Origin: a virus
DNA: 41,350 nucleotides
Reading direction: 5' to 3' (one strand)
Virus record (IMG/VR): IMGVR_UViG_3300033145_001228
Span: 1 to 41,350 of that record
Shown here: positions 9,471 to 40,293 of the stretch, in pieces
Layout: each line of letters opens with the position of its first letter
Numbering within the stretch: the stretch's first letter is position 1
Notes under the pieces: generated by a model
Told to the model about the DNA's origin: nothing
What the model saw: the letters and a program-made list of their open reading frames with translations, nothing else
The model's database searches: none
Position numbers and translations under genes: made by a program

Positions 9471-10796
9471 TTATATAGTTGATGGGTTAGCGGAGTAAAC
9501 TTTCATATTTATGATACCGGCTGCGCGACTAAGACGGCTGTCTTTTCGCAGAGCTTGACCATAATATGCCTCGATGCCTAAACCAATCCCCATACCATAA
9601 TCTTTCTTCTGGCCGATAGGACCTGGCTTATCACCTAATGCGCGACAAACTGATTGCGCGCCAAAACCAATTACAGTAGCAATATTTCGCTGTGTAACCA
9701 GCTTGTCAATAACATGAGATGCAGCTGTGGTACTTGAAACGCCTCTTGTCAACCCTGTGAAACTATTCTTGCCTTTACCGCTATAAGAAATAATTTCATC
9801 TTCAACCTGTAAGGATCCACTTGATGCAAAATAAATAGTGAAGTCCGGCTGAGTTGAAGTTGCTGTGGTTGCCCCACCAACAGACAAGGTTGTGGCCGTT
9901 GTCGTTAATGTTGCAAAAACAGTTGATTCAGGTCGAAGCGGTGTACCTTGAGGAATCGGAAGTAAAGAATAATAGGTATAAAGCACCATATTCTTAAACA
10001 CACCAATTGCTCCTTTGAATAGAGGATGATCACCGTCTCCGTCAAACCTCTTCAAAGCATTTTGTATCGATTGAACAAATACTGTATTCTGATTCAAGCG
10101 ATACTCTTCAACTTCACTGAAAACACAACCATAAATAGGAACCTTACGGCCGTTGTTAAGCTTTGCAACAATCGGCAAAGCTCCCTTACGCAACAATGCT
10201 AAACGCACAAGGTCCAACTCAGTTGGCCCAAACACATCACCATCGTCAGCATTTAATTCACCTACCGAGGATTTGCTATTAGCAAAGATTGTTTCATTGG
10301 TATCAGCTGTAATCAAGGTGAAGATGTCAGCATCCATCTTACGGCTCATCCAATCCTTCAGAAGAACCCCTGCTGATTTAACCTGGCTGAAGTTAGCTTG
10401 ACGATCTGCCTTCTTCGTGATACCAACTGCATGACGAACAAAATCTGCTGATACAGTGAATGTTCCCACTGACAGAGATTCCTCGTTTCCGAGTAACTGA
10501 TTTTCACCGGTAACACCAGTTCCCATCAGCTGTGAAATGACACTAAAACTTAATTGATCACCTTTTTGGCGTAATGGACCGGTCTTGTCGATAACAGGCA
10601 TCATTGTTCCTTCTGAACCTGTCAGCGCTCCCCAAAAGGAGTCTCTGTTGCCATCAGCAAATACTCCGTCAGCCCAAAACTCTGGAATGACATCATCAAT
10701 ATCAGCAACGCCGGTTACAACCAAACTATCAAGTGTGGATACACCTGATTGGCACATCAATATACTTCTAAACAGATATGCAATTTTTATGAACAT
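9471..10796 (-). CDS. Major capsid protein (HK97-fold family, DUF4043-like)
   Basis: Position directly after the scaffold gene. The block KGDQLSFSVISQLMGTGVTGENQLLGNEESL matches the conserved N-terminal region of this capsid family (from memory). 441 aa. Confidence 0.8.
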   Translation of the reverse strand: MFIKIAYLFRSILMCQSGVSTLDSLVVTGVADIDDVIPEFWADGVFADGNRDSFWGALTGSEGTMMPVIDKTGPLRQKGDQLSFSVISQLMGTGVTGENQLLGNEESLSVGTFTVSADFVRHAVGITKKADRQANFSQVKSAGVLLKDWMSRKMDADIFTLITADTNETIFANSKSSVGELNADDGDVFGPTELDLVRLALLRKGALPIVAKLNNGRKVPIYGCVFSEVEEYRLNQNTVFVQSIQNALKRFDGDGDHPLFKGAIGVFKNMVLYTYYSLLPIPQGTPLRPESTVFATLTTTATTLSVGGATTATSTQPDFTIYFASSGSLQVEDEIISYSGKGKNSFTGLTRGVSSTTAASHVIDKLVTQRNIATVIGFGAQSVCRALGDKPGPIGQKKDYGMGIGLGIEAYYGQALRKDSRLSRAAGIINMKVYSANPSTI

Positions 10797-10813: not shown

Positions 10814-11890
10814 TTAAATGTTTTTCTTGTCGTGTTCCTCCCGCTCCTCTTCAGAAAGTGCAAGATATTCTTGCTTTGTTAACTTACCGCCTTCTTTCTC
10901 TGACTTATCAGAAGATCCATCTACCGGACCAACAATCTTCTTTCCGGCCTTGCCCTGCTGATAACCTTCTTTCTTCGCGGAACCACTTCTTTTAAGAACA
11001 ATTTGAAGTTCAGCAGCCGCTTCTCTGGCTGATTTTAACTCTCCATAAGCATCTTTACCTTGATACTTTTGTTGCCAAATTTCAGTGGCACGATCATAAA
11101 AGGCCTGGTTGAATACTTTGTTTGCTGCCTTCTTACCCTTAGAAAAATCCTCTCGATTGCCAGGATCAAGCTCCGGATACATCTCATCCAAGATTCCGTT
11201 AGCAGTTTCTTGATCAGCAAGAAATTTAGTAACCGCAGCTTTATTCTTTAATGTTACCTGCTTAGTATTAAAGAAACCTTGATCAACGGCATCTTGAGCC
11301 AAAATTGAAAGAAGCTCAACAAACGTGTTCCCATCTTCTTCTTTGTCAAAGAAACTAGACAGTTTTTTCTTGTGCTCGTCGGTGAATTTCTTTTCGAAAG
11401 ATTTTGTTTCTTTCTCTTTCGATGGTTCTTTCTCAGTAAAGGTGATATTCCCATCTTCGTCTGTGCTTATCCCAATCCCTGACTTATCCAAAGCAGTACG
11501 TAAATTGGAAAGATTACCTTCCGTAGCACCCATCTTTCCAGCACGATTTTGATAAGCCTCCCACAGTTTATCAGGATCATCACCAAATTCACCGTATTTT
11601 CCATCAGCTTCAGGTTCTTCTTCCTTATCCTTTTCAGGGGAAGCTTCCTCTTCGCCTTTAGATTTATCTTTAGCGCCGGCCGATTCTTCTTTATCCTTTT
11701 CAGGAGATTCCTCGCCTTCGGCGTTAGGATCCTTTTCTTTTTCCTTACCCTCTTTTTCTTCCTTACCTTCTTCCTCTTCACCCTTTTCACCATCATCAGG
11801 GTAAACCGTCTGACCATCCTTAATTAATCCTCTCTCATCAGAGGTAATGTTGAATAGAAGGTTTAGAATTGGTTTTAAAAAATAAAACAT
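10814..11890 (-). CDS. Scaffolding-like protein (358 aa, E/K-rich low complexity plus helical C-terminus)
   Basis: Immediately upstream of the capsid gene. Strong SD (AAGGAGCAATAT-ATG). Extreme Glu/Lys content. Carries the shared N-terminal leader. Confidence 0.6.
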   Translation of the reverse strand: MFYFLKPILNLLFNITSDERGLIKDGQTVYPDDGEKGEEEEGKEEKEGKEKEKDPNAEGEESPEKDKEESAGAKDKSKGEEEASPEKDKEEEPEADGKYGEFGDDPDKLWEAYQNRAGKMGATEGNLSNLRTALDKSGIGISTDEDGNITFTEKEPSKEKETKSFEKKFTDEHKKKLSSFFDKEEDGNTFVELLSILAQDAVDQGFFNTKQVTLKNKAAVTKFLADQETANGILDEMYPELDPGNREDFSKGKKAANKVFNQAFYDRATEIWQQKYQGKDAYGELKSAREAAAELQIVLKRSGSAKKEGYQQGKAGKKIVGPVDGSSDKSEKEGGKLTKQEYLALSEEEREEHDKKNI

Positions 11891-11959: not shown

Positions 11960-12015
11960 CGAGCAAAACCAACAGAAAAGGACAGATCTGACTGATGCAT
12001 CAGAATCTGTCCTTT
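11960..12015 (-). terminator. Intrinsic terminator-like hairpin between the accessory head genes and the scaffold gene
   Basis: 11-bp stem aaaggacagat/atctgtccttt (11977-11987 / 12005-12015) with an inner palindrome ctgatgcatcag. On the minus strand it is followed by TTCTGTTGGTTTTGC. Confidence 0.5.
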
Positions 12016-12045
12016 AAAGCAATGTTGGTATCTACTAGTAGCGAA

Positions 12046-12236: not shown

Positions 12237-12253
12237 CACATAACCCTATCAAT

Positions 12254-12487
12254 TTAACCTAAAAACTTAACTAACGACTTAACGTATTTACAAGATGCTT
12301 CAATCATTCCTTTGGTATATCTATCAGTTTTAACTCTACAAATTTCCGGTCGCTCATAATAAATCGAACACAAATTATCATCATTCAAATGTTTACAAGT
12401 TCCATCACCGCGATCCAGGTCCTTAGAAACTAACCTAACGTATCGACAACAGTCTCCGCACTTTTCGCATTCCCATTTCATACCCAT
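12254..12487 (-). CDS. CxxCxxCC (YkgJ/UPF0153, formerly FliB-named) putative Zn/Fe-binding protein
   Basis: CEKCGDCCRYV ... CKHLNDDNLCSIYYERPEICR matches the family signature. The second ATG (12481) forms an ATGA overlap with the stop of the A24 peptidase gene. Confidence 0.7.
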   Translation of the reverse strand: MGMKWECEKCGDCCRYVRLVSKDLDRGDGTCKHLNDDNLCSIYYERPEICRVKTDRYTKGMIEASCKYVKSLVKFLG

Positions 12488-12861
12488 ATAAAAAATAAAC
12501 TCGGTATCAAAACAAATGGCGTAAACGGTCTAGGTTTAAATAAGAACGTATTCCTATGATAGTATATATTAAGAGCAAATGCAAACAATAAAATTAAAAA
12601 AGAATAATTCCCCATGAAAGCACCTACCATTGCCATCAGTTTTACATCCCCTCCGCAAAACGCACCTTTAGAAAAGATCAGAGCTCCAATCAAAAACATC
12701 AACAAAGCATAATCCCAATTACCAGTAAAATATATCCCAACCGCAATAGCCGGCAACACAATCACATTAGGAATAATCAATCTCTTAATATCACAAACTG
12801 TCAGAACAAACATAATTAATATAAATATCAGCGTCGGAAAAGACAAGTTAAGCTCTCCCAA
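12478..12861 (-). CDS. Minimal A24-family (prepilin peptidase / TadV / FlaK-like) membrane aspartyl protease, 127 aa
   Basis: Both catalytic-Asp motifs are present: VCDIKRLIIPN (first Asp) and CGGDVKLMAMVGAFMG (GxGDxKL). About 4 hydrophobic helices. No methyltransferase domain. Confidence 0.75.
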   Translation of the reverse strand: MGELNLSFPTLIFILIMFVLTVCDIKRLIIPNVIVLPAIAVGIYFTGNWDYALLMFLIGALIFSKGAFCGGDVKLMAMVGAFMGNYSFLILLFAFALNIYYHRNTFLFKPRPFTPFVLIPSLFFIWV

Positions 12862-14164: not shown

Positions 14165-14485
14165 TTATGTATCCTCCGATACATCTTGCTTACTTGTTTT
14201 CTCTTCCTGTTCAATCTTCTTAATAAGATCATCCTCACTAGCAAAAATCTTAGCCGGTATCTTCTTAATGAATTGAGTGATTAAATATATTTCATGATCG
14301 ATCAGCTTCAGCTCATAGATCGTCTTTTCATCAGCCCTGTCCAAAGCTGTCAGAGCTTTATGCTTCATCTGAGCATCAACGTACTTATTAAGAATATCAA
14401 TGAACTCATGCCATCCGGAGTTAGGCGTTAGCGTAAGCCGGCGCATCTCCTCAGCACACCTAAGAAGCTCATCCCGCTTCTTCAT
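14165..14485 (-). CDS. Hypothetical helical protein (106 aa)
   Basis: ATG at 14485 preceded by AAGAAGGA, just after the portal stop. The track ORF start at 14542 overlaps the portal gene. Confidence 0.55.
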   Translation of the reverse strand: MKKRDELLRCAEEMRRLTLTPNSGWHEFIDILNKYVDAQMKHKALTALDRADEKTIYELKLIDHEIYLITQFIKKIPAKIFASEDDLIKKIEQEEKTSKQDVSEDT

Positions 14486-14501
14486 CGTGTCCTTCTTAAT
14501 C

Positions 14502-16520
14502 TTATTTGCTTGCTTCTTGTCCTTGTTCCCCAGCCCCAGCACGATTTACCTCCAATCCTTCTATTTGCTCAGAAGCGCGATCAATGATGCGCTCATTAGC
14601 TCTCTGTTTACTTTTAATTGAAGCCCGCTCCTCAATATTCTTCATTTCTGTAATAATTGCTTCTCGCGTAGGAATAAACTTCTGCCAATCCTTATGGCCT
14701 TTTGATAAAAGATTGTCTTTAAGAATCTCCCAAGTATGTAGCAAACTACCGGCAACCATTGGCTGAGGCAATAACCTATCCATAAGATCATCAGAAATAG
14801 CAACCTGAAGCTGTTTATTAGAGCTTAGGCTGGTTCCCTTCCAAACAAAATCAAACTGTCCGGCCAAATCGTCTTTCTTCCAATACCGCTCAACATCCTT
14901 ATCCTGAAACTGTTGCATATTCGCATCAGTCGGAAATACAATCTCACCATCATCCCCGCGAATACGGCGCTCCAAACCAGGCGGCATATCTTCATGATAA
15001 TAATCTACGGTCCACTTAGCAATCTTCCTAAGCAGAATATGAACCCGCTGGACAAAGTTGTCAAGGCCAATATTGCCCTCAGCAACCGTTAAATCAACCT
15101 CGCCCTTAGTCTTTTGCCCGCCCTGCTGCCTTGCTGTTCCTGTTTGGAAGATAGAGATATTTGATAATCTTTCAGCAAAATTCAACAATGAAGCCTCAAG
15201 ATCAATACTAATTGCTGCTACCTCACCAACATTTAAAACCCTAATATCACCAGCGTTTTGTTCCTCCCATATCGCGCCAGGAAACACTTCCGGCCGCTCC
15301 CAATCCTCACCAGTGAGAGTTTTCTTCTTAACGAAGATCTTCTGCATAGCAATGTTGGCATTATTCATAATCGTGTTGTGAAGAGTATTTATCTCCCGCT
15401 GAGTATTCCAAAGCTTCTGACAAAGCGACCGACCCCAAAAATGCTCAGTCTCTTCATACATACCGCGAATATACACCCGCTCAGGAAACGGATTCCGATC
15501 ATGATACCAGTGGCTTATTGAAAGCAGCTCCTTAGCCTTAAAATCAATCTGACAGAATACTTCCTGCTCAATAGCATCCTTGTCCTCAAAATCAATTTCT
15601 TTCTGTGAATTGAATGGAAGTCGGCCATACCAATTGTAACAGGGCCTTAGAATGGCTCTGTGAGCAACAACTTTGTTGAATCCCTCAACATTCTTCTCCA
15701 TGTTGTTGTTTTCAACAGATTTCACACTATCTTCAATAAATCTGCCCTGCTTTGCCTTCATCCTCATATCATTGATCGTAAGCCAAAACCTATTACCTTC
15801 CCAATGCGGTCGCTTTGCGCGCTTCGCATTTCCGGCCCATACATAATCACGAAAATTAATATACTCTAGCTGAGGACCGTCTATAAGCTTCACATCCTCA
15901 GTAACAAACACATCCCGCTTACCGGAAGGTGTAAATCCATCAGATATGAGCCCTAAACTCTTATCCATAGCCTCTGGATCATCCGGAAGAATGTCAGCTG
16001 ATTCTCCGGTTTTATCTTTTGTAAAAGTATTTGCCTCTTCAATCGTAAAGCGCCGATCAAATTCCTGTGTAATATCATACCTTAAAACAGCAAACGGAAG
16101 TTTAATCATCTGCTTTATAAAGTAATTTGTATTCTCAAACAAAAGAATAACCTCACGCATGATCCCATCAACAAAATCCGTTACACCATCTGCCTTGTCC
16201 ACATCAGCCGCTTCCTCACCAACTGCCTGAAGATATGGCTCCTGGCTGAATAAAATCCTCATGGCGCGCGCGTGGATAGCATCAACCATCCATTCTGTCA
16301 TAGGAATGAAATAATCAGCTGCATTGTACCAGGGATAATCAGCTGTTGCTCCTGAATCCATATATTTAGTTATTTGAGCATATTGGCGCTCACATCGGCG
16401 GGCCATCTTGTAGACTATTTGATTTTGTGTGCGGGATACTGTTATTTCCTTTTCAATCACCTGAGCTATTATCTTAGATTTGGCTCGATCAATTTTGATC
16501 TCAAATTTCTTTTCACGCAT
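14502..16520 (-). CDS. Portal protein
   Basis: 672 aa. Downstream of TerL and upstream of scaffold/capsid. N-terminal region (..YPWYNAADYFIPMTEW..) resembles podovirus head-tail connector proteins. Confidence 0.75.
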   Translation of the reverse strand: MREKKFEIKIDRAKSKIIAQVIEKEITVSRTQNQIVYKMARRCERQYAQITKYMDSGATADYPWYNAADYFIPMTEWMVDAIHARAMRILFSQEPYLQAVGEEAADVDKADGVTDFVDGIMREVILLFENTNYFIKQMIKLPFAVLRYDITQEFDRRFTIEEANTFTKDKTGESADILPDDPEAMDKSLGLISDGFTPSGKRDVFVTEDVKLIDGPQLEYINFRDYVWAGNAKRAKRPHWEGNRFWLTINDMRMKAKQGRFIEDSVKSVENNNMEKNVEGFNKVVAHRAILRPCYNWYGRLPFNSQKEIDFEDKDAIEQEVFCQIDFKAKELLSISHWYHDRNPFPERVYIRGMYEETEHFWGRSLCQKLWNTQREINTLHNTIMNNANIAMQKIFVKKKTLTGEDWERPEVFPGAIWEEQNAGDIRVLNVGEVAAISIDLEASLLNFAERLSNISIFQTGTARQQGGQKTKGEVDLTVAEGNIGLDNFVQRVHILLRKIAKWTVDYYHEDMPPGLERRIRGDDGEIVFPTDANMQQFQDKDVERYWKKDDLAGQFDFVWKGTSLSSNKQLQVAISDDLMDRLLPQPMVAGSLLHTWEILKDNLLSKGHKDWQKFIPTREAIITEMKNIEERASIKSKQRANERIIDRASEQIEGLEVNRAGAGEQGQEASK

Positions 16521-24651: not shown

Positions 24652-24906
24652 TTATTGTTTTAACTTTGGGAAAAAAGGTATAAACATCGAGCTAAGAAAT
24701 CCAATCAAAATAATAACTAACATTATTTCAGGTAAAGTAAATCCTACTTTCCTCTTCAACTGGCATCCTAAATAATCCAATACTCCCCATGTCTTAATTC
24801 CAACAATTGTGTTTTGTGGAGGCGTTACAAGCCTTCCAAAAATCTTAAATCCTCGGTTCGTTAAATAGGCCGCTGCTTCATCCTCATGGTTAAATCTTTT
24901 TTTCAT
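24652..24906 (-). CDS. Pilin-like mini-protein carrying a class III (prepilin) signal motif
   Basis: ..QLKRKVG|FTLPEIMLVIILIGFLSSMFIPFFPKLKQ has basic residues, Gly at -1, Phe at +1, Glu at +5 and then a hydrophobic helix. SD AAGGAG lies before the ATG at 24906. An internal TTG (giving MKRKVG|FTLPE) is an alternative start. Confidence 0.55.
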   Translation of the reverse strand: MKKRFNHEDEAAAYLTNRGFKIFGRLVTPPQNTIVGIKTWGVLDYLGCQLKRKVGFTLPEIMLVIILIGFLSSMFIPFFPKLKQ

Positions 24907-31400: not shown

Positions 31401-32916
31401 CAGCCGGCACTTCGCGGGGAACTCTACGGAGTTTACGTTCAAGATCCAGCTTCTTAACCGGAACTGCTGGCTTCTTAACTGGAACAACAAGCTTCTTAGG
31501 TTCAACCGGCTCTAACCCTTCTTCCTTAAACAGTTTAGGAACAACTTTAGAAGGCTTGACCTCTTTAGTAATTACCTCCTCTTTTTCCTCTGCTGCCAAA
31601 ACAACAAACTCCGGCTTAACCCTTGCAATCTCTTTCTTAAGATCTTCCGGTATTTTACCCTTCTCAATCTCTTTAAGCTGATCAGGCGTAACAGTAATTG
31701 ACTTCGTATCCTGTCCGGATGATTCTTTTGAAAACGTGCTTACTGTCTGAAACGTAGCACCTGGCAACATAAGCAATGGAAAGCCTTCAGCGCTTGCTTT
31801 AAGAACACCGCCCATGCGATCAAGAGCATCTTGAGAACTGGGCCCCTTATATTTCTCATCCTTAGACACTACCTCAATCACACCAGCTAAGGCTTCTCCA
31901 CTTAAAGTAACCGCTTCCTGAGCTACCTCCTGTGTAATCTCAACACCGGTTGCACCAGCCAAATCAAGACTAAGGGCCAATAATTTTCCTCTAATAGTAG
32001 GATTTTTAAGAATGGCATCCTGAATCTTTTTCTTAAAGAATATACTCCCGCCAGGAAGCCTCTTTGCTATGGTTCCAAGCTGTGAAGCTTCAATAAATCC
32101 ATTAGCCACGCCAACTGCTTCACTCACAGGTTTGGCCACTTTAGGATCAATACCAGATTGAATCATCTCAATAAAAGCATTGCCGCCTTCAATCTTGCGC
32201 GTAAAGTCCACCACTCCAAACGTAGCCCCTACACTAAATCCGGCTAATGTAGTAGCCGGAACAGCCGGAAGCGCACCACCGGCAGCCGCCGCCGCAGCTC
32301 CACCGATAGCGCCGGCAGTTCCTTTCTTCAAGCTTTCCTGAAATCCCTTAATCATAAATGGCAGAAATTCAGCCGTACCGCCAACCATACGCTTTGGAAG
32401 TCCAAGCCCTTCAAATTCCTCTGGAAGCTCCTTTTGTAAATTCTCAATCGACCTCAATCCTTCTTCGCTTTGTATTTCACCGCTCTTAATCTTTTCACCA
32501 ATCAATCCTTGCTCAACAACAAACTCACCTTTCTTAAATCTCTTTTTTGCAACCTCAGCAAAAGAAGGCTCTACTTTTTTTGGCTTCAATCCTTCCGTAA
32601 CACCGGCCCTTAATGTATCAGCTAAAATGGGCTTAGGAGCCGTTCTAAGGCCCTTAATTAAATTAGGCAGGGGTGAGATCGTTTCCGGTGAGATCGTTTG
32701 AAAATCTTGAGTTGTGCCAGAGGAAACAGGTGTTCTAGGGGCTCTCAGGAGCTTAGTCGGAGAGGGTTTTGGAAATAAATCCTCAACAATCCTATTTCCT
32801 GGTTGTTGAGGTATGGATAGAGGAGTCTTTATATCAGGCTGTTGCTCAGTAAAAAGATCCTGAACAACTCCTGCTCCAACTGCCGACGCATCAAATAGAT
32901 CTTTTATAACTGGCAT
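28465..32916 (-). CDS. Giant virion-associated protein (1483 aa): internal/ejection protein (T7 gp16-like position) or tape-measure-like
   Basis: Size; Gly-zipper hydrophobic region GTAGAIGGAAAAAAGGALPAVPATTLAGFSVGATFGVV; long charged helical middle; C-terminal hydrophobic segments. Last gene of the structural block. No catalytic domain recognised. Confidence 0.6.
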   Translation of the reverse strand: MPVIKDLFDASAVGAGVVQDLFTEQQPDIKTPLSIPQQPGNRIVEDLFPKPSPTKLLRAPRTPVSSGTTQDFQTISPETISPLPNLIKGLRTAPKPILADTLRAGVTEGLKPKKVEPSFAEVAKKRFKKGEFVVEQGLIGEKIKSGEIQSEEGLRSIENLQKELPEEFEGLGLPKRMVGGTAEFLPFMIKGFQESLKKGTAGAIGGAAAAAAGGALPAVPATTLAGFSVGATFGVVDFTRKIEGGNAFIEMIQSGIDPKVAKPVSEAVGVANGFIEASQLGTIAKRLPGGSIFFKKKIQDAILKNPTIRGKLLALSLDLAGATGVEITQEVAQEAVTLSGEALAGVIEVVSKDEKYKGPSSQDALDRMGGVLKASAEGFPLLMLPGATFQTVSTFSKESSGQDTKSITVTPDQLKEIEKGKIPEDLKKEIARVKPEFVVLAAEEKEEVITKEVKPSKVVPKLFKEEGLEPVEPKKLVVPVKKPAVPVKKLDLERKLRRVPREVPAVIAPAKLQEAVKEIEDTSKLLEEKEKSELSIELSELAKTPEVNLLVAVKDIGGIAPTLAGKLKEELAAIPKSLKGKVPLDEAVERLKQFGHEFADGEELRQAIIEEARQPIDKADKAQLRNILSRIRKNQKAIVKVQAIIQQISQRQVPAGKVKQIVRASTAQLKVSDLISADAALAEVLRKEQQISRKAFVFGKVTGVEVQKIQTRSVKARERERRAVREEISGIVKRINKLPTQNLPIEYKEKIEEIKSGFDFGRRTQKTLARRESMKIFIQQQEEQGVEINIPQESLDLLEKVTLNDITLQELRDIDEVIARLVHLGRTKNRIFTDIKNHNFEAALDDMINTITKGKGITEKSAIIRTLEDNPNIADKSLEGLKSYIAMHLRPEVMVNGLDGFEEGINTQAIWDPSLAAEGDKLREQARTLEKIQKILKPMDVNKTLGKKFTVGRFKNMTKDQALFIYANSFNAGNMSHLIGSGITQDDLIEVERFLTDEEKSMARDIIKFYDEDQYQKLNDIHRDLEGVNLPKEENYFPIDRLEDISYQKELQLDILQRAAVRRAGVVKGFTKSRVHSTKAFSDFSFIGTIFRNWQKIEHYKAFAKSVRDVNKFVTNKKFKRAVEENFGKRYYFELDKWIKDVAFNGDKAPMQAIDQISRFIRTNYATAVLGLNFVTMMKQPVSYFQGAEFMGKRAAMRGTVKFIGNPIKWIEFSKNKSVFMKNRSFRQERELREIQARRGKTALLKTGKVQRGREFVMIPILAADRATVTSLWIGAYFDQISLGKTEADAVKWADKVIRRTQPQGSIINLPGVFRGSEIQKLYTIFKNQLNQNFNLIFELYQKTGKGKMSINKFIQGNIMLWLAPAFAIGFISRRRTPDKKEFFWDTLGQLTGTFIIFSSFVQSMQSGFLQSGTPLDQLVEDAVKVGSAKKTSSKAKAAADVIGKLTGFPVVFTRRVLKGEPFGKLSPKKRKSKIKFGGISGL

Positions 32917-33575
32917 TATTTAATAAATTTCCTCGCTCTTAAAGCGGAGATAATTTCATCCCTTGTTTTGTCCGGAAAGGCTGCCAGATTCTCAGTAATC
33001 AAAGCTTCTTCATCAGAAGTGAAATCTTCAACCTTTCCTGTTTTATCAATAGTTGCATCTCCGGTAATCTTCTTTGTTATCTTAGTTTGTTTCTTGAGCT
33101 TGCGTGACTTTACCGATAAAGCCTTAGCTTGCCCCCTTATAGCTTCGGCTTCAGGCGTGAATTTAGTTTCTTTTCTGAATGGCGCGCCACCTGTTACCAA
33201 TGCTCTAAGAAAACCAAGAGGCCCCAGCGGTCCGGTTCCTACTTCTTCCTGTTCAGTTAATCCTTTAAACTTCTCAGTAGCCGCTGCTGTTTCAGGAGTT
33301 AAACCTAGAATATTCTGCGCTTGAATAGCCTCGCCTAATCCTACCGGCTCATCAGTTGTCGTAACAGTTTTGGTTGTTTGGTCCTTCTTAAGCCCTGCCT
33401 TAAATGTCTCAAACTCCTTCTTCTCAGCAAGATCAACACCTTTAGTCTGTTTAGCAATTAATAATTTAATAAGATCGGATGTTTGAAGGCCCCCTGTTTG
33501 CTGAGGTAATCGAGAGGGAAGATTCCTTAATACGCCTTTCTGATCAAATAATATTTTAAAGAATAACATAATCAT
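32916..33575 (-). CDS. Virion-module protein with shared N-terminal leader (219 aa); internal-protein candidate
   Basis: MIMLFFKILFDQKG leader. TAATG overlap with the giant gene. Confidence 0.55.
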   Translation of the reverse strand: MIMLFFKILFDQKGVLRNLPSRLPQQTGGLQTSDLIKLLIAKQTKGVDLAEKKEFETFKAGLKKDQTTKTVTTTDEPVGLGEAIQAQNILGLTPETAAATEKFKGLTEQEEVGTGPLGPLGFLRALVTGGAPFRKETKFTPEAEAIRGQAKALSVKSRKLKKQTKITKKITGDATIDKTGKVEDFTSDEEALITENLAAFPDKTRDEIISALRARKFIK

Positions 33576-33577
33576 AA

Positions 33578-34432
33578 TTAACCCCCCTCCTTCTTCTTAC
33601 CAAAACCTAACAGTTGAGATAATAGAGCAGTATCAACAGCTGATTGACCAACCCCCGATACACCTTGACCTAGCCTTTGAGTAAAACTAGGCTCAAAAAA
33701 TGTTTCTGCTGGTTGACCGGTTAAGAAACTGACAGCTTGGCCTGAAGCACCCTGTTCTTCAGCTATTTGTCTCTGAAGGTCTTGAAGAGAAAATGCTTGG
33801 CCTTGAGCTTGTCCAGCCCTTTGTGTCTGACCTAATCCAAGCGCCTGACCTATATTGGCTTGAGCGAATGTCTCTTGAAGGCCTAATGCTTGAAGCTGGC
33901 TTTGGATCTGCTGAACAGCTAAATCAGAAGCTAAGAGTTCACCAGAAATGCGCTGCTTCTCAGATAAATCAGACTGTGCTTGAAGTCCAGGGGTAGAGGA
34001 CACAAGTCCTAATCGATTAAACCTATTTTGAGTCGCTTCCCTTTCTTCCTCGAATAACTCTTTTTGTCGGGCTCGCTGTGCATCGAAGGCCCGCTTTGTT
34101 ATATCCGCTGTTATTCCTTCGGCTGTAATAGGTGCACCAAGTCTTGTACCAATTGCTTTCTCAGCTTGAGCTTCTATGCCTGGCTGTGCTTGAGTAAGCG
34201 CTGGATCCTGAGTAAAAGAAGTTCTTTGCCCTAAACGGCCTGTAAGAAACTGAGACGTTTCCCCGCGCTCTTTTGCAAAAGGATCAATAGTTGTTTTCTT
34301 ATCCTTTCCAAAAGCACCAACAATTCCACCTATTGTTTTAGCAACTAATCCACCGCCAGCAGCTAAGGCAATCGGATCAATTCCTCTTTCATCCTTTAGA
34401 ATATTCCTAAATAACCTAATCAGTCTTTTCAT
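33578..34432 (-). CDS. Gln/Gly/Ala-rich virion-module protein with shared leader and a hydrophobic segment (284 aa); internal-protein candidate
   Basis: MKRLIRLFRNILKDERG followed by IDPIALAAGGGLVAKTIGGIVGAFG. Confidence 0.55.
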   Translation of the reverse strand: MKRLIRLFRNILKDERGIDPIALAAGGGLVAKTIGGIVGAFGKDKKTTIDPFAKERGETSQFLTGRLGQRTSFTQDPALTQAQPGIEAQAEKAIGTRLGAPITAEGITADITKRAFDAQRARQKELFEEEREATQNRFNRLGLVSSTPGLQAQSDLSEKQRISGELLASDLAVQQIQSQLQALGLQETFAQANIGQALGLGQTQRAGQAQGQAFSLQDLQRQIAEEQGASGQAVSFLTGQPAETFFEPSFTQRLGQGVSGVGQSAVDTALLSQLLGFGKKKEGG

Positions 34433-34761: not shown

Positions 34762-35496
34762 CTAATCTTTCTGAAATAATTTCAAGGTTACATAAGCCGG
34801 AATATTATCCACACTTGATATTGTATGTGTGTGGCCTGATCCACCGCCTGTTGATCCAGTTGTTAAAGTGTTATTATCAGTATCAGTATCAGATGATAAT
34901 GTTGGGGGCGAAGAACCTATTGCACCAGAGGATTTTTTACTTACAGTGTGAGTATGAGCCGGCATTTCTGAAATAGAAATCGTATGGCTTCCACTTGCCG
35001 CACCATGATCATGCGTATCCGATCCCGCTTCGCTAAGCGCAGTTGAATTTATCCGTATAAACTTATTACCATAAGTGCTCGACTTATCTGTAAAACCATC
35101 CGGTGTATCCGCAGATGAAGATAAAACAACATCCCCGCTTCTTCCCCATGTAAGACCTCCGGATGCGCGGTTAATCATTTCAGCAACTTTAGCTCTAAGA
35201 CCACCATCTTGATTCGTTTCAAGCCCAGGATTCGTTGCTGATAAATCAACCTGAAGTGTTCCGTCGGTATGCTGAGATAATCCAAAATCTGTCCTTACCA
35301 CTGATCCGGCAATCTGAACATTAGTTACAGAATCAGCAGCTAGATTTGTTGAAGTTAGAGCATTTACAACAGCCTCTATTTCGTCATAATTCGTGTTAAA
35401 ACCTGAAGCCGTAATAACTGTATTAGATGTCTTTCGTGTTATAGCAAGCGTATCTCCTCGCTGATCTAATAATATCCTTAAAAATAATCTTAACAT
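34762..35496 (-). CDS. Fibre protein with phage tail-collar / MdpB-like C-terminal domain, plus shared leader
   Basis: GSHTISISEMPAHTHTV ... GGGSGHTHTISSVDNIPAYVTLKLF matches the His-rich collar-domain pattern. N-terminus MLRLFLRILLDQRG. Confidence 0.6.
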   Translation of the reverse strand: MLRLFLRILLDQRGDTLAITRKTSNTVITASGFNTNYDEIEAVVNALTSTNLAADSVTNVQIAGSVVRTDFGLSQHTDGTLQVDLSATNPGLETNQDGGLRAKVAEMINRASGGLTWGRSGDVVLSSSADTPDGFTDKSSTYGNKFIRINSTALSEAGSDTHDHGAASGSHTISISEMPAHTHTVSKKSSGAIGSSPPTLSSDTDTDNNTLTTGSTGGGSGHTHTISSVDNIPAYVTLKLFQKD

Positions 35497-36854: not shown

Positions 36855-38388
36855 GACTTCTTGAAACCCTCCTTAATGCTTTAGCCAAAAGCGCGTAATA
36901 TCTCACAAGCCATGCCTCATCTAATCCGGTTGTACCCATCGATACCTGGATAAGCTTCCCCTGTCTTGAAATTTCATGAGAAACCTCAGCATCAGATTCA
37001 ACGGCAAAACTATCCTCATCAAACTTAGCCACATCAAATAATGCAAATACTCCAACTCCTCCAAGCATATTCTGAGTTACAGTCTTTTCAGTAGCCGCAT
37101 TATTATCAATAACAAAATTTATATTAAGATTCCAATCTCCGGCATTATCATAAGAAAATTCGATCTTATTATATTTCTTCTCAATTGTCGGGTCTCCATG
37201 AGAAAGTCTTTTTGAGGAATAATTTGTATTGAAAGCCGCTCCGTCGTCGTTAGTTCCGGTATCATTTTTATAAACCTTTCCAACATACCCGCCATGATAT
37301 AACAAGTCCTGTCCGGCTGTATCAACCTCAGCAAAAGCATTAGCCGCGATAGAATAAATAAACCAGGGATATTGAAGCTTTCCAAACTTGTCTTGATATG
37401 GCCGGTTCCAATCCATAACAAGCGTTCTATCATTCGTTGTTTCTCCGGATGTTTTTGTAAATGAACACCAATACTGGCTGCGGTTATAAAGAAGTCCGGA
37501 CACAGCTTTATTCAGCCTTGATGTTACACCAGTTCTAATATAAGCCTTAATGTTATCTCCGACCGGAAAAACTGTATCTCCGATAGCCATATAAAAATTA
37601 AAGTCTTGAGCTAAGAATATAACCTGGCCGGAAGGCAACTCCTTCATGACTTGATGATTGACCGGACCAACATTAGTTGGAACCTTGTATATTTGAAATA
37701 ACGGATCCGACCCCCTGAACTGTACGCGATAAAGATGCGATCTTTTTCCAACAAGAAGATCATCTCCTTGCTTAGAAGCGCCGGTTAAAGCCTCTCCATC
37801 ATTATCAAAATTAAGAAAACTTGTGTACGGAGCAGAAGCATCACCCAAAGATCCATAATATAATAATCGAGGATCTGCTGTTGAATTAACCCAGGGATAC
37901 CTCTGCCATTCAATACAAAAACTTGCTGTAACGGAAGTTTCAAAGGTAGCTGCTGATCCGGTTCCATTCCATATTAAAGAATCATTATTTCCATTAACGG
38001 CTAAGACCTCATTTCCTAATGTTAGAAAGGCCCAGCGCACATTAACACCTTCAGTATATCCATCAAAAAGCTCTGTATAAGCATTGCTGGCAAACTTATA
38101 CAGCTTACCATCACTTCCGGCTCCCATAAAATGAGAAGTTCTTGTTCCGCTTGAAAACTCATTAAACTGAAAAAATCCTGTCCAGGCTACAGTTCCACCA
38201 ATTGATGCGCTTGTCAGAGCTGTAAATCCTTTTCTGGATCCCAATGAACCTTGAGGGTCTGAGAAGATATTAATGCTAGTCTCATCCCATTCACCGTCAG
38301 CTTTATTCTCATCAGAGTCTTTTGTATTGACTCCTAGAAAATTCTCCATAAATAAAAATGGTTGAAAGCGTCTACCTAGCATTACCAA
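36844..38388 (-). CDS. Large virion structural protein (514 aa); nozzle/tail-tubular-B-like by position
   Basis: Beta-rich and repetitive (GSDGKLYKF, NGNNDSLIWNG). Follows the adaptor-like gene. Function inferred from position only. Confidence 0.5.
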   Translation of the reverse strand: MVMLGRRFQPFLFMENFLGVNTKDSDENKADGEWDETSINIFSDPQGSLGSRKGFTALTSASIGGTVAWTGFFQFNEFSSGTRTSHFMGAGSDGKLYKFASNAYTELFDGYTEGVNVRWAFLTLGNEVLAVNGNNDSLIWNGTGSAATFETSVTASFCIEWQRYPWVNSTADPRLLYYGSLGDASAPYTSFLNFDNDGEALTGASKQGDDLLVGKRSHLYRVQFRGSDPLFQIYKVPTNVGPVNHQVMKELPSGQVIFLAQDFNFYMAIGDTVFPVGDNIKAYIRTGVTSRLNKAVSGLLYNRSQYWCSFTKTSGETTNDRTLVMDWNRPYQDKFGKLQYPWFIYSIAANAFAEVDTAGQDLLYHGGYVGKVYKNDTGTNDDGAAFNTNYSSKRLSHGDPTIEKKYNKIEFSYDNAGDWNLNINFVIDNNAATEKTVTQNMLGGVGVFALFDVAKFDEDSFAVESDAEVSHEISRQGKLIQVSMGTTGLDEAWLVRYYALLAKALRRVSRSRES

Positions 38389-39212
38389 ATATCTCCTGTA
38401 AAGTCGAATCGATCATGAAAATGTCCATCTAAGTGATTATCACTAAAATGGCCCTGATGTTGATAATCTTCGTATGGCCCATGCTGCGCGTGATTATCCG
38501 CAAAACCTCGCAATACTCTCACGCCTTTTTTCCTTAGCGGGCCCCTATTGACAGACAGCGCTCTATCAAGAATACCCATCCCTGGATTAGAAAGATCATG
38601 CCACTCCTGTTTCATCATGATCAAGCTCTCAGTATCACCTTGTTGCCTAAGCCTAGCCATTGAAACAAAGTGAGCAAAAGCACCGGAAAACTGTTTTGTA
38701 ATAAGGGTCTCAACACTTGAAGTTACATCCACCCATTGAAGTTCAATCTCCATAAAGACCGTATATGTTTTATCCGGCAACCTTCTAAACTGAATCTCCC
38801 AAAAATCACTCTCAGGCCTTGTTACAACAAATTCATGAGGAAGTCCGGAGTTCTCATTAGGATTAGTCCATTCATAAGCTCTTTGAACCGGAACCTCAGT
38901 TAAAGGATGCCGCGTTGTTCCATCTAATAAATAAGATTTTAAAACATTCTTGAAGGTAGCCGGCAATATGTCGCTTCCGGAATACTTAAATTTACTCGTT
39001 CCAATATTAAAAGAAATATCACTTCTTAAGAATTTCCAGTTTGTAAGATTGCAGAAGTCATGCCCGCGCTCATTGATAAGACGTTTAATCTTAACTGCCG
39101 CATCCGCGCTATCATCTCCTGTCATGTCGGCAACCATGCTAACGATACTGCCTTGTAAAATTCCTAAACCTCCGACCTCATCAAATAATATATCTCTTAA
39201 CAATTTAATCAT
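38382..39212 (-). CDS. Virion structural protein with shared leader (276 aa); adaptor-like by position
   Basis: MIKLLRDILFDEVGG leader. 7-nt overlap with the next structural gene. Confidence 0.5.
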   Translation of the reverse strand: MIKLLRDILFDEVGGLGILQGSIVSMVADMTGDDSADAAVKIKRLINERGHDFCNLTNWKFLRSDISFNIGTSKFKYSGSDILPATFKNVLKSYLLDGTTRHPLTEVPVQRAYEWTNPNENSGLPHEFVVTRPESDFWEIQFRRLPDKTYTVFMEIELQWVDVTSSVETLITKQFSGAFAHFVSMARLRQQGDTESLIMMKQEWHDLSNPGMGILDRALSVNRGPLRKKGVRVLRGFADNHAQHGPYEDYQHQGHFSDNHLDGHFHDRFDFTGDIW

Positions 39213-39779: not shown

Positions 39780-39894
39780 TTAACTCTTTAAACATCTGAT
39801 CATACATAGCATCCTTATATTGATCATGTCTTTTGTAGCTTGCTTCTATAGCCTTAATTGTGTGCAAAACTATTTCAGCATCGTCTAAAGTCAT
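39685..39894 (-). CDS. Hypothetical protein (69 aa); its 3' end overlaps the hydrolase gene
   Basis: ATGA overlap with the stop of 39891-40136. The C-terminal third may be non-coding overlap. Confidence 0.4.
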   Translation of the reverse strand: MTLDDAEIVLHTIKAIEASYKRHDQYKDAMYDQMFKELNVQIPERRKEGDRRRDKAKIDNGRGLAADCT

Positions 39895-40136
39895 TTCAAT
39901 CCGATCTGTGATGCAATATAAAACAGCGCAATCATAATAACTAATTTATAAGCATAATTATAAAATCCTTCTCTGCTGCGTTTATATTTAGTAATCCAAG
40001 TTTCATGTTTTTCAACTTTTGCAACTACACCTTCCGGTTTATCGTATGTGCCTAAAAGAAGGCCTTCCATTCTTTTTTGAAAAGCTTCTATTTTCTCAAG
40101 CAGTTTAAATATCCTCGTTGTTTCATCAGGTGTCAT
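39891..40136 (-). CDS. Holin-like protein, C-terminal transmembrane helix (81 aa)
   Basis: ..YNYAYKLVIMIALFYIASQIGLK. Located upstream of the hydrolase. Confidence 0.45.
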   Translation of the reverse strand: MTPDETTRIFKLLEKIEAFQKRMEGLLLGTYDKPEGVVAKVEKHETWITKYKRSREGFYNYAYKLVIMIALFYIASQIGLK

Positions 40137-40285
40137 TTTCTACCTTTCAGCCACCACCCTAAAAGAATAGGAATAACAGCGATTAACAAAAGCCATAAAT
40201 AATTAGTTGACTCCGGTTCCGGTTGAGTTCTAGCAATAGCATCCGCTGTTGCTTCCACAAATCGAATTGATTGTTCTGCGCTCAT
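40133..40285 (-). CDS. 50-aa single-pass membrane micro-protein (holin/antiholin candidate)
   Basis: MSAEQSIRFVEATADAIARTQPEPESTNYLWLLLIAVIPILLGWWLKGRK. ATGA overlap with the next gene. Confidence 0.45.
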   Translation of the reverse strand: MSAEQSIRFVEATADAIARTQPEPESTNYLWLLLIAVIPILLGWWLKGRK

Positions 40286-40293
40286 TTGGCCCA

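What the first reader, a model, noticed from the sequence alone, without database searches (positions are those of the whole stretch)
12254..12861. Phage-encoded minimal A24 (prepilin-peptidase-type) protease plus CxxCxxCC protein in the slot where a prohead protease normally sits
A 127-aa polytopic protein carries both catalytic-Asp signatures of type IV prepilin / Tad / pre-archaellin peptidases: CDIKRLIIPN and GGDVKLMAMVGAFMG. Its stop overlaps (ATGA) a 77-aa protein with the CxxCxxCC ... C-x-IY-x-RP-x-x-CR signature (YkgJ/UPF0153, the family once named after the flagellin lysine methylase FliB).

The pair lies in a ~2.2 kb insertion between portal and scaffold/capsid, together with a GT-A-like gene. 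This is the position where HK97-type phages keep the maturation protease. I recognised no other head protease.

The scaffold and capsid genes immediately downstream both begin with the shared Gly-terminated leader (see the leader finding). A membrane aspartyl protease acting in virion maturation, or a phage bringing its own prepilin peptidase to reprogram host pili, would both be undescribed to my knowledge.
Basis: partly seen in the sequence, partly recalled or inferred. Interest (0 to 1): 0.85.

Follow-up and report, generated by a model that had tools for sequence, protein, structure and literature searches.

The report
Phage leader peptidase for virion proteins
A whole lineage of uncultured ~41-kb tailed phages keeps a tiny membrane-embedded, pilin-peptidase-type protease gene just upstream of its scaffold and capsid genes, and up to six virion proteins per genome start with one shared short leader ending in glycine, so this enzyme is probably a new kind of phage maturation protease, though cleavage has not been shown.

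Summary
ORF 12861..12478(-) is a minimal A24 (prepilin-peptidase-type) aspartyl protease: PF01478, 44.8 bits against a cut-off of 26.5. Both catalytic Asp residues are invariant in 81 homologs, and AlphaFold gives six helices at pLDDT 94. ORF 12487..12254(-) is a CxxCxxCC protein (PF03692).

The window is a complete ~41.2-kb podovirus-like genome, closed by a 114-nt terminal repeat.

The A24 gene is core, not an insertion. In 26 of 26 non-redundant related loci it lies directly upstream of scaffold and capsid. The CxxCxxCC gene occurs only in the closest relatives, and the 274-aa GT-like gene in none, so both are accessory.

A 12-22 aa amphipathic leader ending D-[Q/E]-[R]-[G/A] begins the scaffold and capsid in essentially all full-length lineage members read. 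In this genome it also begins four other virion proteins. Leaderless orthologs start exactly at the predicted cut. No other conserved protease exists.

Best explanation (about 0.6): the A24 enzyme removes this leader at the cytoplasmic face of the membrane. Cleavage is inferred, not demonstrated.

The canonical G|FTLPE mini-pilin passes TIGR02532 but is specific to this genome, so it is a secondary substrate at most.

Novelty: a new variant of known kinds. Interest is high.

The parts
12478..12861 (-). Minimal A24 (PilD-type catalytic core) aspartyl membrane peptidase. 127 aa from the TTG at 12861; the probable true start is the TTG at 12846 (122 aa). Catalytic D24 and D72 in 127-aa numbering.
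   Evidence: PF01478 at 44.8 bits against a 26.5 cut-off. D24, G71, D72 and K74 are invariant in 81 sequences. AF2 gives pLDDT 94.3 with six helices. Start-codon and RBS analysis. Present upstream of the scaffold gene in 26 of 26 loci.
12254..12487 (-). CxxCxxCC / YkgJ-type Cys-cluster protein, 77 aa, translationally coupled to A24 by an ATGA overlap at its second Met. Accessory gene, not part of the conserved system.
   Evidence: PF03692 at 31.3 bits against a cut-off of 23. Found only in L001 and L002 among the relatives.
10814..11890 (-). Acidic scaffold-like protein, 358 aa. N-terminal leader MFYFLKPILNLLFNITSDERG|L is encoded at 11828-11890.
   Evidence: Orthologs in all loci carry a leader ending D-x-R-G. 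AAGGAG RBS upstream.
9471..10796 (-). Major capsid protein (PF13252, N4-gp56-type), 441 aa. Leader MFIKIAYLFRSILMCQSG|V is encoded at 10743-10796.
   Evidence: The leader is present in essentially all full-length members among the 120 capsid clusters read, with G or A at -1 in every case where the WTTEM-type junction is readable.
38382..39212 (-). Virion-region protein o276, 276 aa. Leader MIKLLRDILFDEVG|G.
   Evidence: Leader profile 9.8 bits. Orthologs either have the leader or start M|GLGITRASL exactly at the predicted cut.
34762..35496 (-). Tail-fibre-like protein o244, 244 aa. Leader MLRLFLRILLDQRG|D.
   Evidence: Leader profile 20.1 bits, E=6e-5. Leader on 8 of 9 orthologs. The leaderless orthologs start at the cut, as in L042/L138 (M|AALSMTRK) and L047 (M|STLAITRK).
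33578..34432 (-). Internal/ejection-type protein o284, 284 aa. Leader MKRLIRLFRNILKDERG|I, followed by a Gly/Ala-rich, moderately hydrophobic tract.
   Evidence: Leader profile 19.3 bits. About 32 of 43 family representatives carry the leader, as do 9 of 9 IMG/VR orthologs. Post-cut hydropathy.
32916..33575 (-). Protein o219, 219 aa, directly upstream of the 1483-aa giant virion protein. Leader MIMLFFKILFDQKG|V.
   Evidence: Leader profile 15.9 bits, E=1e-3.
24652..24906 (-). 84-aa protein with a canonical prepilin cleavage/methylation motif at residues 55-74 (KRKVG|FTLPEIMLVIILIGFLSSMF). Possible orthodox substrate, specific to this genome.
   Evidence: TIGR02532 at 19.3 bits against a cut-off of 16.3. 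Strong RBS at M1. No relatives in IMG/VR and no such motif in related loci.
14165..14542 (-). o125, a conserved helical protein between portal and A24. Context gene, not a protease.
   Evidence: Present in nearly all loci. No invariant His, Ser or Cys.
14502..16520 (-). Portal protein. Upstream anchor of the head module.
   Evidence: phrog_332. Orthologs hit PF23899 SU10_portal.

Best explanation
The A24 gene encodes a dedicated leader peptidase for the phage's own virion proteins.

Inferred steps:
- The six-helix enzyme sits in the host cytoplasmic membrane with both catalytic Asp residues at the cytoplasmic face.
- The scaffold, the major capsid protein and, in this genome, four further virion proteins (o276, o244, o284, o219) are made with a 12-22 aa amphipathic N-terminal leader ending ...[I/L]-[L]-x-D-[Q/E]-[R]-[G/A].
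- The amphipathic helix brings the precursor to the membrane surface.
- The enzyme cuts after the Gly or Ala, as A24 peptidases do with prepilin leaders, and releases the mature protein for assembly.

Shown here:
- A24 family membership.
- Conservation of the catalytic residues.
- The invariant position of the gene directly upstream of the scaffold gene.
- The existence, conservation and modular boundary of the leader.
- The absence of any other conserved protease.

Not shown: that the leader is cleaved at all, that this enzyme does it, and that the leader binds membrane.
For: 1. True A24 enzyme. PF01478 is above its curated cut-off. D24, G71, D72 and K74 are invariant across 81 phage-type and cellular PilD-type sequences. 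Both Asp residues are intact in 26 of 26 loci. The AF2 model has six helices at pLDDT 94.3, with K/R clustered beside both Asp residues. The nearest cellular relatives are named prepilin peptidases.

2. Core gene. An A24 ORF lies directly upstream of the scaffold gene in 26 of 26 non-redundant loci with enough upstream sequence. This holds as A24 identity falls to 33% and capsid identity to 50%.

3. Leader. Over 110 leaders the mean length is 16.8 aa. Position -4 is D in 72%, -3 is Q/E in 69%, -2 is R in 45%, and -1 is G in 82% or A in 18%. A profile built from other genomes' leaders scores the capsid, the scaffold, o244, o284 and o219 as the top five of all six-frame ORFs in the window, each at or near its N-terminus. 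A Met-anchored re-scan places each hit at the initiator Met. All six leader-bearing ORFs have a Shine-Dalgarno site.

4. Modularity. Orthologs of o276, o244 and o284 that lack the leader begin at Met plus the residue predicted to follow the cut.

5. Fit to A24 rules. Class III leaders are N-terminal, 6-26 aa long, end in Gly, and are cut on the cytoplasmic side by a two-Asp polytopic peptidase that is often promiscuous (PMC4471445).

6. No rival protease. o125 has no conserved catalytic residue. o185 is absent from a leader-bearing relative. No other protease family was hit in the Pfam and PHROG scans.

7. Outgroups. Cultured podoviruses with related capsids have neither the A24 gene nor the leader.

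8. Precedents for short shared propeptides on phage structural proteins: 80alpha with Prp (PMC5744158), and T4 CTS with gp21, where proheads are membrane-attached until cleavage (PMC9026906).
Against: - There is no experimental or proteomic evidence that the leader is removed.
- Canonical A24 substrates have a hydrophilic leader followed by about 21 hydrophobic residues. Here the hydrophobic part lies before the cut, and most substrates are soluble after it. Mean KD for +1 to +21 is 0.13 for the capsid and -1.0 for the scaffold, against 2.2 for the mini-pilin.
- A polytopic enzyme cannot co-assemble inside a procapsid as classical prohead proteases do.
- Co-occurrence is universal within the lineage, so it cannot be separated from shared ancestry. 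No complete leaderless sister genome was recovered to test for joint loss.
- G and A at -1 coexist within single genomes, so no specificity covariation with the enzyme could be extracted.
- Foldseek found no similarity to any solved structure.
Confidence: 0.6

Rival explanations
1. Orthodox prepilin peptidase. [quoted passage not shown] This would alter host type IV filaments, for example for superinfection exclusion or receptor control. On this reading the virion-protein leader is either uncleaved (a targeting or folding signal) or cut by a host protease.
For: The 84-aa ORF 24906..24652 passes TIGR02532 (19.3 bits against 16.3) and has a strong RBS. The closest cellular relatives of the enzyme are PilD-type prepilin peptidases. 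Prepilin peptidases are promiscuous (PMC4471445). 80alpha shows that a host protease can trim capsid and scaffold leaders.
Against: The mini-pilin has no relative in IMG/VR. No prepilin-type motif occurs in about 1 Mb of six-frame translation from related genomes, including early regions. Yet the A24 gene is universal in the lineage. The window has no pilus assembly ATPase or platform gene in any Pfam scan. This reading does not explain the fixed position directly upstream of the scaffold gene, in the late head operon. It also does not explain why the only conserved N-terminal Gly-terminated leaders in these genomes are on virion proteins.
Confidence: 0.2
2. Lysis or other membrane role. The small polytopic protein acts as a holin-like or lysis-timing membrane protein, or as a non-catalytic membrane anchor for assembly, and its protease ancestry is incidental.
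For: It is a small protein with several TM helices. In L039 and L040 a phage lysozyme gene lies immediately upstream of it.
Against: Both catalytic Asp residues and the GGDxK motif are invariant over sequences as low as 26% identical and in 26 of 26 loci. That implies selection for catalysis. The window has a separate lysis-like cluster: two single-TM ORFs plus o185, at 39222-40294. The lysozyme neighbour is seen in one sub-lineage only, inside the variable accessory slot.
Confidence: 0.07
3. The leader is cleaved by a different, unrecognised phage protease, for example the papain-like-looking o185 or an unannotated ORF, and the A24 gene is an unrelated conserved accessory gene.
For: o185 hits phrog_1128 (E=1e-8) and shows an NHV...YCSEQV arrangement by eye. 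Many ORFs have no annotation.
Against: o185 has no Pfam, PDB or cultured-phage match. It is missing next to the o276 ortholog in L042/L138, although that genome keeps leader-bearing scaffold, capsid and o284. o125, the only other universally conserved ORF between portal and scaffold, has no conserved His, Ser or Cys. No known prohead protease family was hit anywhere.
Confidence: 0.08

Closest known systems
Type IV prepilin (leader) peptidases, MEROPS family A24: PilD/GspO, TadV/CpaA, archaeal FlaK/PibD
   Same: Homologous catalytic core (PF01478). It has the two essential Asp residues, one of them in a GGD(V)K motif. It is polytopic, and the predicted six helices match the six-TM core described for FlaK. 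The predicted cut removes a short N-terminal leader after a Gly (or Ala), often preceded by Arg or Lys, on the cytoplasmic side.
   Different: At 122-127 aa it has no PF06750 methyltransferase or Zn domain. It is phage-encoded and sits in a head operon with no pilus ATPase or platform genes. The predicted substrates are capsid, scaffold, ejection-type and fibre-like proteins. Their leader is hydrophobic and amphipathic, and most have no hydrophobic tract after the cut. There is a clear score gap to cellular enzymes: 66-192 bits within the phage group against about 58 bits.
Staphylococcus phage 80alpha capsid/scaffold processing by the host Cys protease Prp
   Same: Capsid and scaffold share a short N-terminal sequence (13-14 aa removed) that a single non-prohead-type protease cuts. 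The same motif also occurs on non-homologous structural proteins of other phages, including a tail protein (PMC5744158). That mirrors the leader on the fibre-like o244.
   Different: Prp is a soluble host cysteine protease whose cellular substrate is ribosomal protein L27, and it cuts F|A. Here the candidate enzyme is phage-encoded, membrane-embedded and aspartyl, and the site is [G/A]|x.
T4-type capsid targeting sequences (CTS) and prohead protease gp21; phiKZ gp175; SPN3US gp245
   Same: Several head proteins (shell, scaffold, internal and ejection proteins) carry short N-terminal propeptides with one shared cleavage motif. T4 proheads are membrane-attached until proteolysis (PMC9026906).
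   Different: gp21-type enzymes are soluble serine proteases that assemble inside the prohead and cut after L/I-x-E. The enzyme here cannot enter a prohead and belongs to an unrelated catalytic class.
HK97-type head modules (portal - protease - scaffold/capsid)
   Same: Gene order. The candidate protease occupies the position between portal and scaffold/capsid.
   Different: There is no homology to S78, S77, S49, S14 or S73 prohead proteases. The capsid is N4-gp56/PF13252-type and the portals of related loci are SU10-type. Cultured relatives with such capsids have no protease in that slot.

Membership tests
Peptidase family A24 (prepilin/leader peptidases) | Significant match to the family profile above the curated threshold | tested here: met
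   PF01478 at E=1.8e-11, 44.8 bits against 26.5, model positions 1-100 of 104. All 7 close homologs and about 45 phage-type clusters carry a PF01478 annotation.
Peptidase family A24 (prepilin/leader peptidases) | Two conserved catalytic Asp residues, the second in a GxGD-like motif | tested here: met
   D24 and G71-D72-x-K74 are invariant in an 81-sequence alignment with cellular PilD-type enzymes. Both are intact in 26 of 26 loci.
Peptidase family A24 (prepilin/leader peptidases) | Polytopic membrane protein with a six-TM catalytic core and a cytoplasm-facing active site | tested here: met
   AF2 gives pLDDT 94.3 and helices 8-27, 32-46, 49-64, 70-83, 86-101 and 114-125. K/R at 26, 27, 65 and 74 flank both Asp residues, which by the positive-inside rule places them on the cytoplasmic side. 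This is prediction only.
Peptidase family A24 (prepilin/leader peptidases) | Structural similarity to a solved A24 structure (FlaK) | tested here: inconclusive
   Foldseek against the PDB gave no hit with E<1 for either model. The PDB profile search gave none. Small all-helical membrane folds are poorly detected by this method.
Peptidase family A24 (prepilin/leader peptidases) | Substrates carry a class III signal peptide: hydrophilic leader, Gly at -1, then about 21 hydrophobic residues with Glu at +5 | tested here: not met
   This is met only by the genome-specific mini-pilin (TIGR02532). The lineage-wide leaders share the N-terminal position, the length and G/A at -1. However, they are amphipathic or hydrophobic, and a hydrophobic tract follows the cut only partly in the o284 family and not at all in capsid or scaffold.
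Peptidase family A24 (prepilin/leader peptidases) | Genomic association with type IV filament machinery (assembly ATPase, platform protein) | tested here: not met
   No such Pfam or PHROG family was found in any window ORF scanned. The gene sits in a head operon in all loci.
Peptidase family A24 (prepilin/leader peptidases) | Demonstrated endoproteolytic activity after the -1 Gly | not testable with these tools
   This needs co-expression and mass spectrometry.
Phage prohead (head maturation) proteases | Encoded in the head module between portal and scaffold/capsid | tested here: met
   The order portal - o125 - (variable) - A24 - scaffold - capsid holds in 26 of 26 loci.
Phage prohead (head maturation) proteases | Homology to a known prohead protease family (S78, S77, S49, S14, S73, S80 and related) | tested here: not met
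   PF01478 is the only significant family hit. There is no PHROG hit and no tblastn match in 50,697 phage records.
Phage prohead (head maturation) proteases | Several head proteins share one cleavage motif | tested here: met
   The leader ending D-[Q/E]-[R]-[G/A] is on the scaffold, the capsid, o284, o219, o276 and o244. This is at the sequence level only; cleavage is not shown.
Phage prohead (head maturation) proteases | The protease is incorporated into the procapsid and acts after shell assembly | not testable with these tools
   A six-TM membrane protein is unlikely to be encapsidated. If it acts, it must act before or at assembly, as proposed for Prp in 80alpha.
CxxCxxCC / YkgJ (PF03692) proteins | Profile match above threshold, with the CxxCxxCC motif | tested here: met
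   31.3 bits against 23, with motif CEKCGDCC. It is not conserved alongside A24, occurring only in L001 and L002.

The most novel reading that the evidence does not exclude
A widespread lineage of uncultured SU10/N4-capsid-type podoviruses uses a PilD-derived, six-helix intramembrane aspartyl protease as its virion maturation enzyme. Capsid, scaffold, ejection and fibre proteins would be made with an amphipathic membrane-targeting leader, gathered at the cytoplasmic membrane, and released by cleavage after Gly or Ala. This would be the first aspartyl and first membrane-embedded maturation protease described for a tailed phage. It would also be the first A24 enzyme whose main substrates are soluble non-pilin proteins.
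Probability: 0.5. Interest if true: 0.9.

Novelty: new variant of a known kind. Interest (0 to 1): 0.8.

Why it matters
If the inference holds, it matters in four ways.

1. It adds a new catalytic class, an intramembrane GxGD-type aspartyl protease, to the small set of enzymes known to mature tailed-phage virions.
2. It shows that an A24 peptidase can act on soluble cytoplasmic proteins through an 'inverted' leader. That widens what this family can be expected to cut in cells.
3. It implies that in this lineage head, ejection and fibre proteins pass through a membrane-bound step before assembly.
4. The leader is short, modular and portable. It is present or absent on orthologs, with a boundary exact to the residue. 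Together with a 122-aa enzyme, this gives a compact and directly testable tag-and-release system.

The system has been overlooked so far. The JGI gene call for the enzyme is probably truncated, and four literature searches found no description of it.

Tried and rejected
- **Structure comparison.** Foldseek of both AF2 models against the PDB gave nothing below E=1. The PDB profile search also gave nothing. Both are recorded as inconclusive, not as evidence against.
- **Cultured phages.** tblastn of the A24 protein against 50,697 phage records found no match.
- **Mini-pilin relatives.** None in IMG/VR.
- **Giant 1483-aa protein as an anchor.** No relatives found, and its N-terminus does not align with L042.
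- **Walking along a related contig by exact match.** This worked once. The second attempt returned the same stored block and wasted a scan.
- **Specificity covariation at -1.** L038 has Ala on both scaffold and capsid. L043, L044 and L045 mix Ala and Gly within one genome, so this test is unusable.
- **First regex for leaders.** It was too strict and missed known cases. A profile on Met-anchored N-termini replaced it.
- **o185 as an alternative protease.** It hits a PHROG labelled enoyl-CoA-hydratase-like but has no Pfam, PDB or phage match and is missing from a leader-bearing relative. More likely it is part of a lysis cluster with two single-TM ORFs.
- **o125 as a cryptic protease.** Rejected, because it has no invariant His, Ser or Cys.
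- **Joint-loss test.** Leaderless o284 homologs P0273 and P0275 lie on contigs of 5.8 and 1.5 kb with no head module, so the test could not be done.
- **Host assignment.** The capsid has no relatives in 185,579 species genomes. The A24 scan returned only cellular PilD-like genes at 51% identity or less over partial segments, about 33% for the near-full-length matches.
- **Promoter and terminator scan around the locus.** At chance level.
- **Rfam on the whole window.** No match.
Full report
**1. The observation**

The two ORFs are on the minus strand at the stated coordinates.

The 127-aa ORF 12861..12478 carries CDIKRLIIPN and GGDVKLMAMVGAFMG. It matches Pfam PF01478 (Peptidase_A24) over almost the whole model at E=1.8e-11, 44.8 bits against a gathering score of 26.5.

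The 77-aa ORF 12487..12254 has CEKCGDCC and matches PF03692 (CxxCxxCC) at 31.3 bits against 23.

The TGA stop of the first ORF overlaps the second Met codon of the next ORF (ATGA).

Start-codon analysis favours the TTG at 12846. It has a GGGAG site upstream and gives 122 aa, the length of the homologs. The internal ATG used in the public gene call (111 aa, P0001) has no RBS and would remove most of the first helix.

**2. What the window is**

Every ORF of 140 aa or more that is not nested inside a longer minus-strand ORF is on the minus strand. The contig ends are an exact 114-nt direct repeat, so this is a closed genome of about 41.2 kb.

It encodes, in order:
- a TerS-like HTH protein, then TerL;
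- a portal (phrog_332) whose orthologs in related loci match SU10_portal;
- an acidic scaffold;
- a PF13252 'N4-gp56-type' capsid;
- tail and fibre genes;
- a 1483-aa virion protein;
- replication-associated genes (ParB, VRR-NUC, Phg_2220_C).

The nearest cultured capsids are podoviruses at 22-27% identity. The portal's only matches are uncultured viruses at 21%. No host could be inferred.

**3. The enzyme**

Only seven close homologs came out of a single-sequence search of 5.8 billion proteins. A profile search found about 45 phage-type clusters of 102-148 aa at 66-192 bits. After a gap come cellular enzymes of about 255 aa with PF01478 + PF06750, named prepilin peptidases by their sources, at about 58 bits and 30-35% identity.

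The phage protein is therefore the bare catalytic core of a PilD-type enzyme, without the domain thought to carry out methylation.

In an 81-sequence alignment of both groups, D24, P37, G71, D72, K74 and P115 are invariant.

With that alignment AlphaFold gives pLDDT 94.3 and pTM 0.88, with six helices. Basic residues lie next to both Asp residues. This fits a cytoplasm-facing active site, as described for the family (PMC4471445).

Foldseek and PDB sequence searches found no solved relative. I treat this as inconclusive.

**4. Conservation of the locus**

Searches of IMG/VR, JGI, ENA, Logan and NCBI contigs, seeded with the enzyme and with the capsid, returned dozens of loci. Several come from contigs of 40-43 kb.

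The gene order is constant: TerL - portal - o125 - (variable small ORFs) - A24 - scaffold - capsid - a Sec-signal protein (sp167) - a polytopic membrane protein (mem348).

Of 26 non-redundant loci with more than 700 nt upstream of the scaffold gene, all 26 have an A24 ORF there, with both Asp residues intact.

The CxxCxxCC gene occurs only in the two closest loci, where a 59-aa ORF separates it from A24. The 274-aa GT-like gene occurs in none.

The slot between o125 and A24 is a variable accessory site. In L039 it holds a lysozyme.

So A24 is core, and the 'pair' and the 'insertion' are not.

**5. The leader**

In all loci the scaffold and the capsid begin with a short hydrophobic or amphipathic segment ending in Gly.

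Among the 120 capsid clusters read, essentially all full-length members have the leader. Wherever the conserved W-T-T-E-M junction is readable, the residue before it is Gly or, less often, Ala.

Statistics over 110 leaders:
- mean length 16.8 aa (range 12-22);
- hydrophobic moment 0.46, against 0.31 for shuffled sequences;
- -7/-6 = I/L; -4 = D (72%); -3 = Q/E (69%); -2 = R (45%); -1 = G (82%) or A (18%).

A profile built only from other genomes' scaffold and capsid leaders was run over all six-frame ORFs of the window. Its five best hits are the capsid, the scaffold and three further proteins, each near the start of its ORF. A Met-anchored re-scan places each hit at the initiator Met and scores them as follows:

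| Protein | Leader | Profile score |
|---|---|---|
| o244 | MLRLFLRILLDQRG\|D | 20.1 bits |
| o284 | MKRLIRLFRNILKDERG\|I | 19.3 bits |
| o219 | MIMLFFKILFDQKG\|V | 15.9 bits |
| o276 | MIKLLRDILFDEVG\|G | 9.8 bits |

o244 is tail-fibre-like. o284 and o219 sit just upstream of the giant virion protein. All six leader-bearing ORFs have a good Shine-Dalgarno site.

**6. The leader is a separable module with a boundary exact to the residue**

- About 32 of 43 representatives of the o284 family, clustered at 50% identity or less, start with the leader. Leaderless members start M|DPVILAML... and M|DPLTIGAL..., against ...G|IDPIALAA... in the window.
- In nine related IMG/VR genomes, o284 orthologs have the leader in 9 of 9 and o244 orthologs in 8 of 9.
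- o276 orthologs have it in 3 of 8. The rest read M|GLGITRASL against ...DEFG|GLGITRASL.
- After normal removal of the initiator Met, leaderless orthologs would therefore have exactly the N-terminus predicted for the cleaved form.
- Cultured outgroup podoviruses have neither the leader nor the A24 gene.

**7. Mechanism proposed**

The family rule is that a polytopic two-Asp peptidase removes an N-terminal leader of 6-26 aa ending in Gly, on the cytoplasmic side. Such enzymes often show relaxed specificity (PMC4471445).

The phage leaders fit in position, length, the small -1 residue and the frequent basic -2 residue. The enzyme's predicted active site faces the compartment where these proteins are made.

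I therefore propose that the amphipathic leader docks the precursors on the inner face of the membrane, and that the A24 enzyme releases them by cutting after G/A.

This resembles two known systems:
- **80alpha.** One protease trims 13-14 residues from both capsid and scaffold, and the same motif occurs on a tail protein of another phage (PMC5744158).
- **T4.** Short targeting propeptides on several head proteins are removed by gp21, and proheads leave the membrane on maturation (PMC9026906).

The differences are real. The hydrophobic element precedes the cut instead of following it. Only the o284 family has a moderately hydrophobic Gly/Ala-rich tract after the cut (mean KD 0.74, against 0.13 for capsid, -1.0 for scaffold and 2.2 for the mini-pilin). 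A six-helix membrane protein cannot work from inside a procapsid.

Cleavage itself is an inference.

**8. Rivals**

*(a) Orthodox prepilin peptidase.* The window does encode an 84-aa protein whose residues 55-74 (KRKVG|FTLPEIMLVIILIGFLSSMF) pass TIGR02532, and its first ATG has a strong RBS. However, it has no relative in IMG/VR. No such motif occurs in about 1 Mb of six-frame translation from related genomes, early regions included. No pilus machinery gene is present. It may be an extra substrate in this genome, but it cannot explain a gene that is universal in the lineage.

*(b) Lysis or holin role.* The invariant catalytic residues argue against this, as does a separate lysis-like cluster.

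*(c) Another phage protease.* o185 is not conserved. o125 has no conserved catalytic residue. No known prohead protease family is detectable.

*(d) A host protease, as in 80alpha.* This cannot be excluded. It is the main reason confidence stops at about 0.6.

**9. Novelty**

Four literature searches found no description of an A24 peptidase in a phage head module or as a maturation protease.

The gene is a new, minimal, virus-borne member of family A24. The inferred system combines two known ideas: leader removal after Gly by an A24 enzyme, and shared propeptides on phage structural proteins. To my knowledge that combination has not been described. I therefore rate it a new variant of known kinds, with high interest, and it can be tested directly by co-expression and mass spectrometry.

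Noticed in passing
window 24652-24906 (-): An 84-aa ORF with a canonical prepilin cleavage/methylation motif at its C-terminal end (KRKVG|FTLPE plus a TM helix; TIGR02532 passed). It is preceded by an unusual 54-residue N-terminal extension, and the mature part would be only 29 aa. No relatives were found in IMG/VR or in related genomes.
   Followed up: partly
window 1-114 and 41237-41350: An exact 114-nt direct repeat at the two contig ends, so the contig is a closed (circular or terminally redundant) genome of about 41.2 kb. A 219-aa ORF runs across the junction (about 1-659, minus strand).
   Followed up: partly
window 7871-9460 (-), and 20918-23026 (-): The capsid gene is always followed by a protein with a classical Sec signal peptide (sp167) and a polytopic membrane protein (mem348). 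Three of nine mem348 orthologs reach Pfam Wzy_C (O-antigen ligase family, best E=2e-4). A 702-aa GT2+TPR protein is also conserved in the lineage. Together these look like a conserved surface-glycan or protein-glycosylation module inside the structural region.
   Followed up: partly
window 16596-16880, 8957-9460, 4794-5903, 3027-4160, 1374-2921 (all -): Five late-region ORFs start with typical Sec-type signal peptides, for example MKKVIVIAVVMLLMFAVVSPAFA|Y and MKKIIILLILFLFVGHVAEA|Q. This is unusual for proteins encoded among the structural genes of a tailed phage.
   Followed up: no
window 19193-19504: A tandem array with a period of 12 nt (occasionally 18 nt), found as 17 overlapping copies of a 108-nt unit. 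One minus-strand frame encodes a Gly-Ser-Tyr-Asp low-complexity protein (MEKIDMIGKLSGSGYGSGYGYGSGSG...).
   Followed up: no
window 39222-40509 (-): A probable lysis cluster. Two small single-TM ORFs (40294..40133 and 40136..39891) sit upstream of o185. o185 hits phrog_1128 (E=1e-8) and shows an NHV...YCSEQV arrangement reminiscent of permuted papain-like amidases. It has no Pfam or PDB support.
   Followed up: partly
window 663-1364, 40518-41207 and about 1-659 (all -): Three paralogous ORFs share an N-terminal motif (M-x-K-K-x-I-x-x-D-x-D/N-I-x-G-I-I/L-Q-T-D-x-Y/H-I-x-Q-D) and then diverge. They may be alternative receptor-binding or fibre proteins.
   Followed up: no
P0006, P0007; loci L003, L017, L019, L020, L046: A subgroup of the phage A24 proteins (140-148 aa) has an insertion of about 17 aa just before the catalytic GGD. 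It carries C-P-x-C-G...H(...H) and may be a small zinc-binding loop on the cytoplasmic face.
   Followed up: no
L039 and L040 (relatives with 50% capsid identity): A phage lysozyme gene lies immediately upstream of the A24 gene, in the variable slot. The same contigs carry an Acb2/Tad1-hairpin (anti-CBASS/Thoeris sponge) domain protein.
   Followed up: no
window 11891-12253: A 364-nt stretch with no convincing ORF lies between the CxxCxxCC gene and the scaffold gene. In most relatives A24 and the scaffold gene are less than 100 nt apart. The promoter and terminator scan was at chance level, and Rfam found nothing.
   Followed up: partly
window 33578-34432 (-) and its family (P0242-P0284): After the predicted cut, the o284 family has a Gly/Ala-rich, moderately hydrophobic tract of about 22 residues, for example IAPLALGAIAMGAGGLMSALGG. 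It resembles a glycine-zipper membrane segment of ejection proteins. This is the only lineage-wide substrate class that approaches a canonical class III signal-peptide layout.
   Followed up: partly
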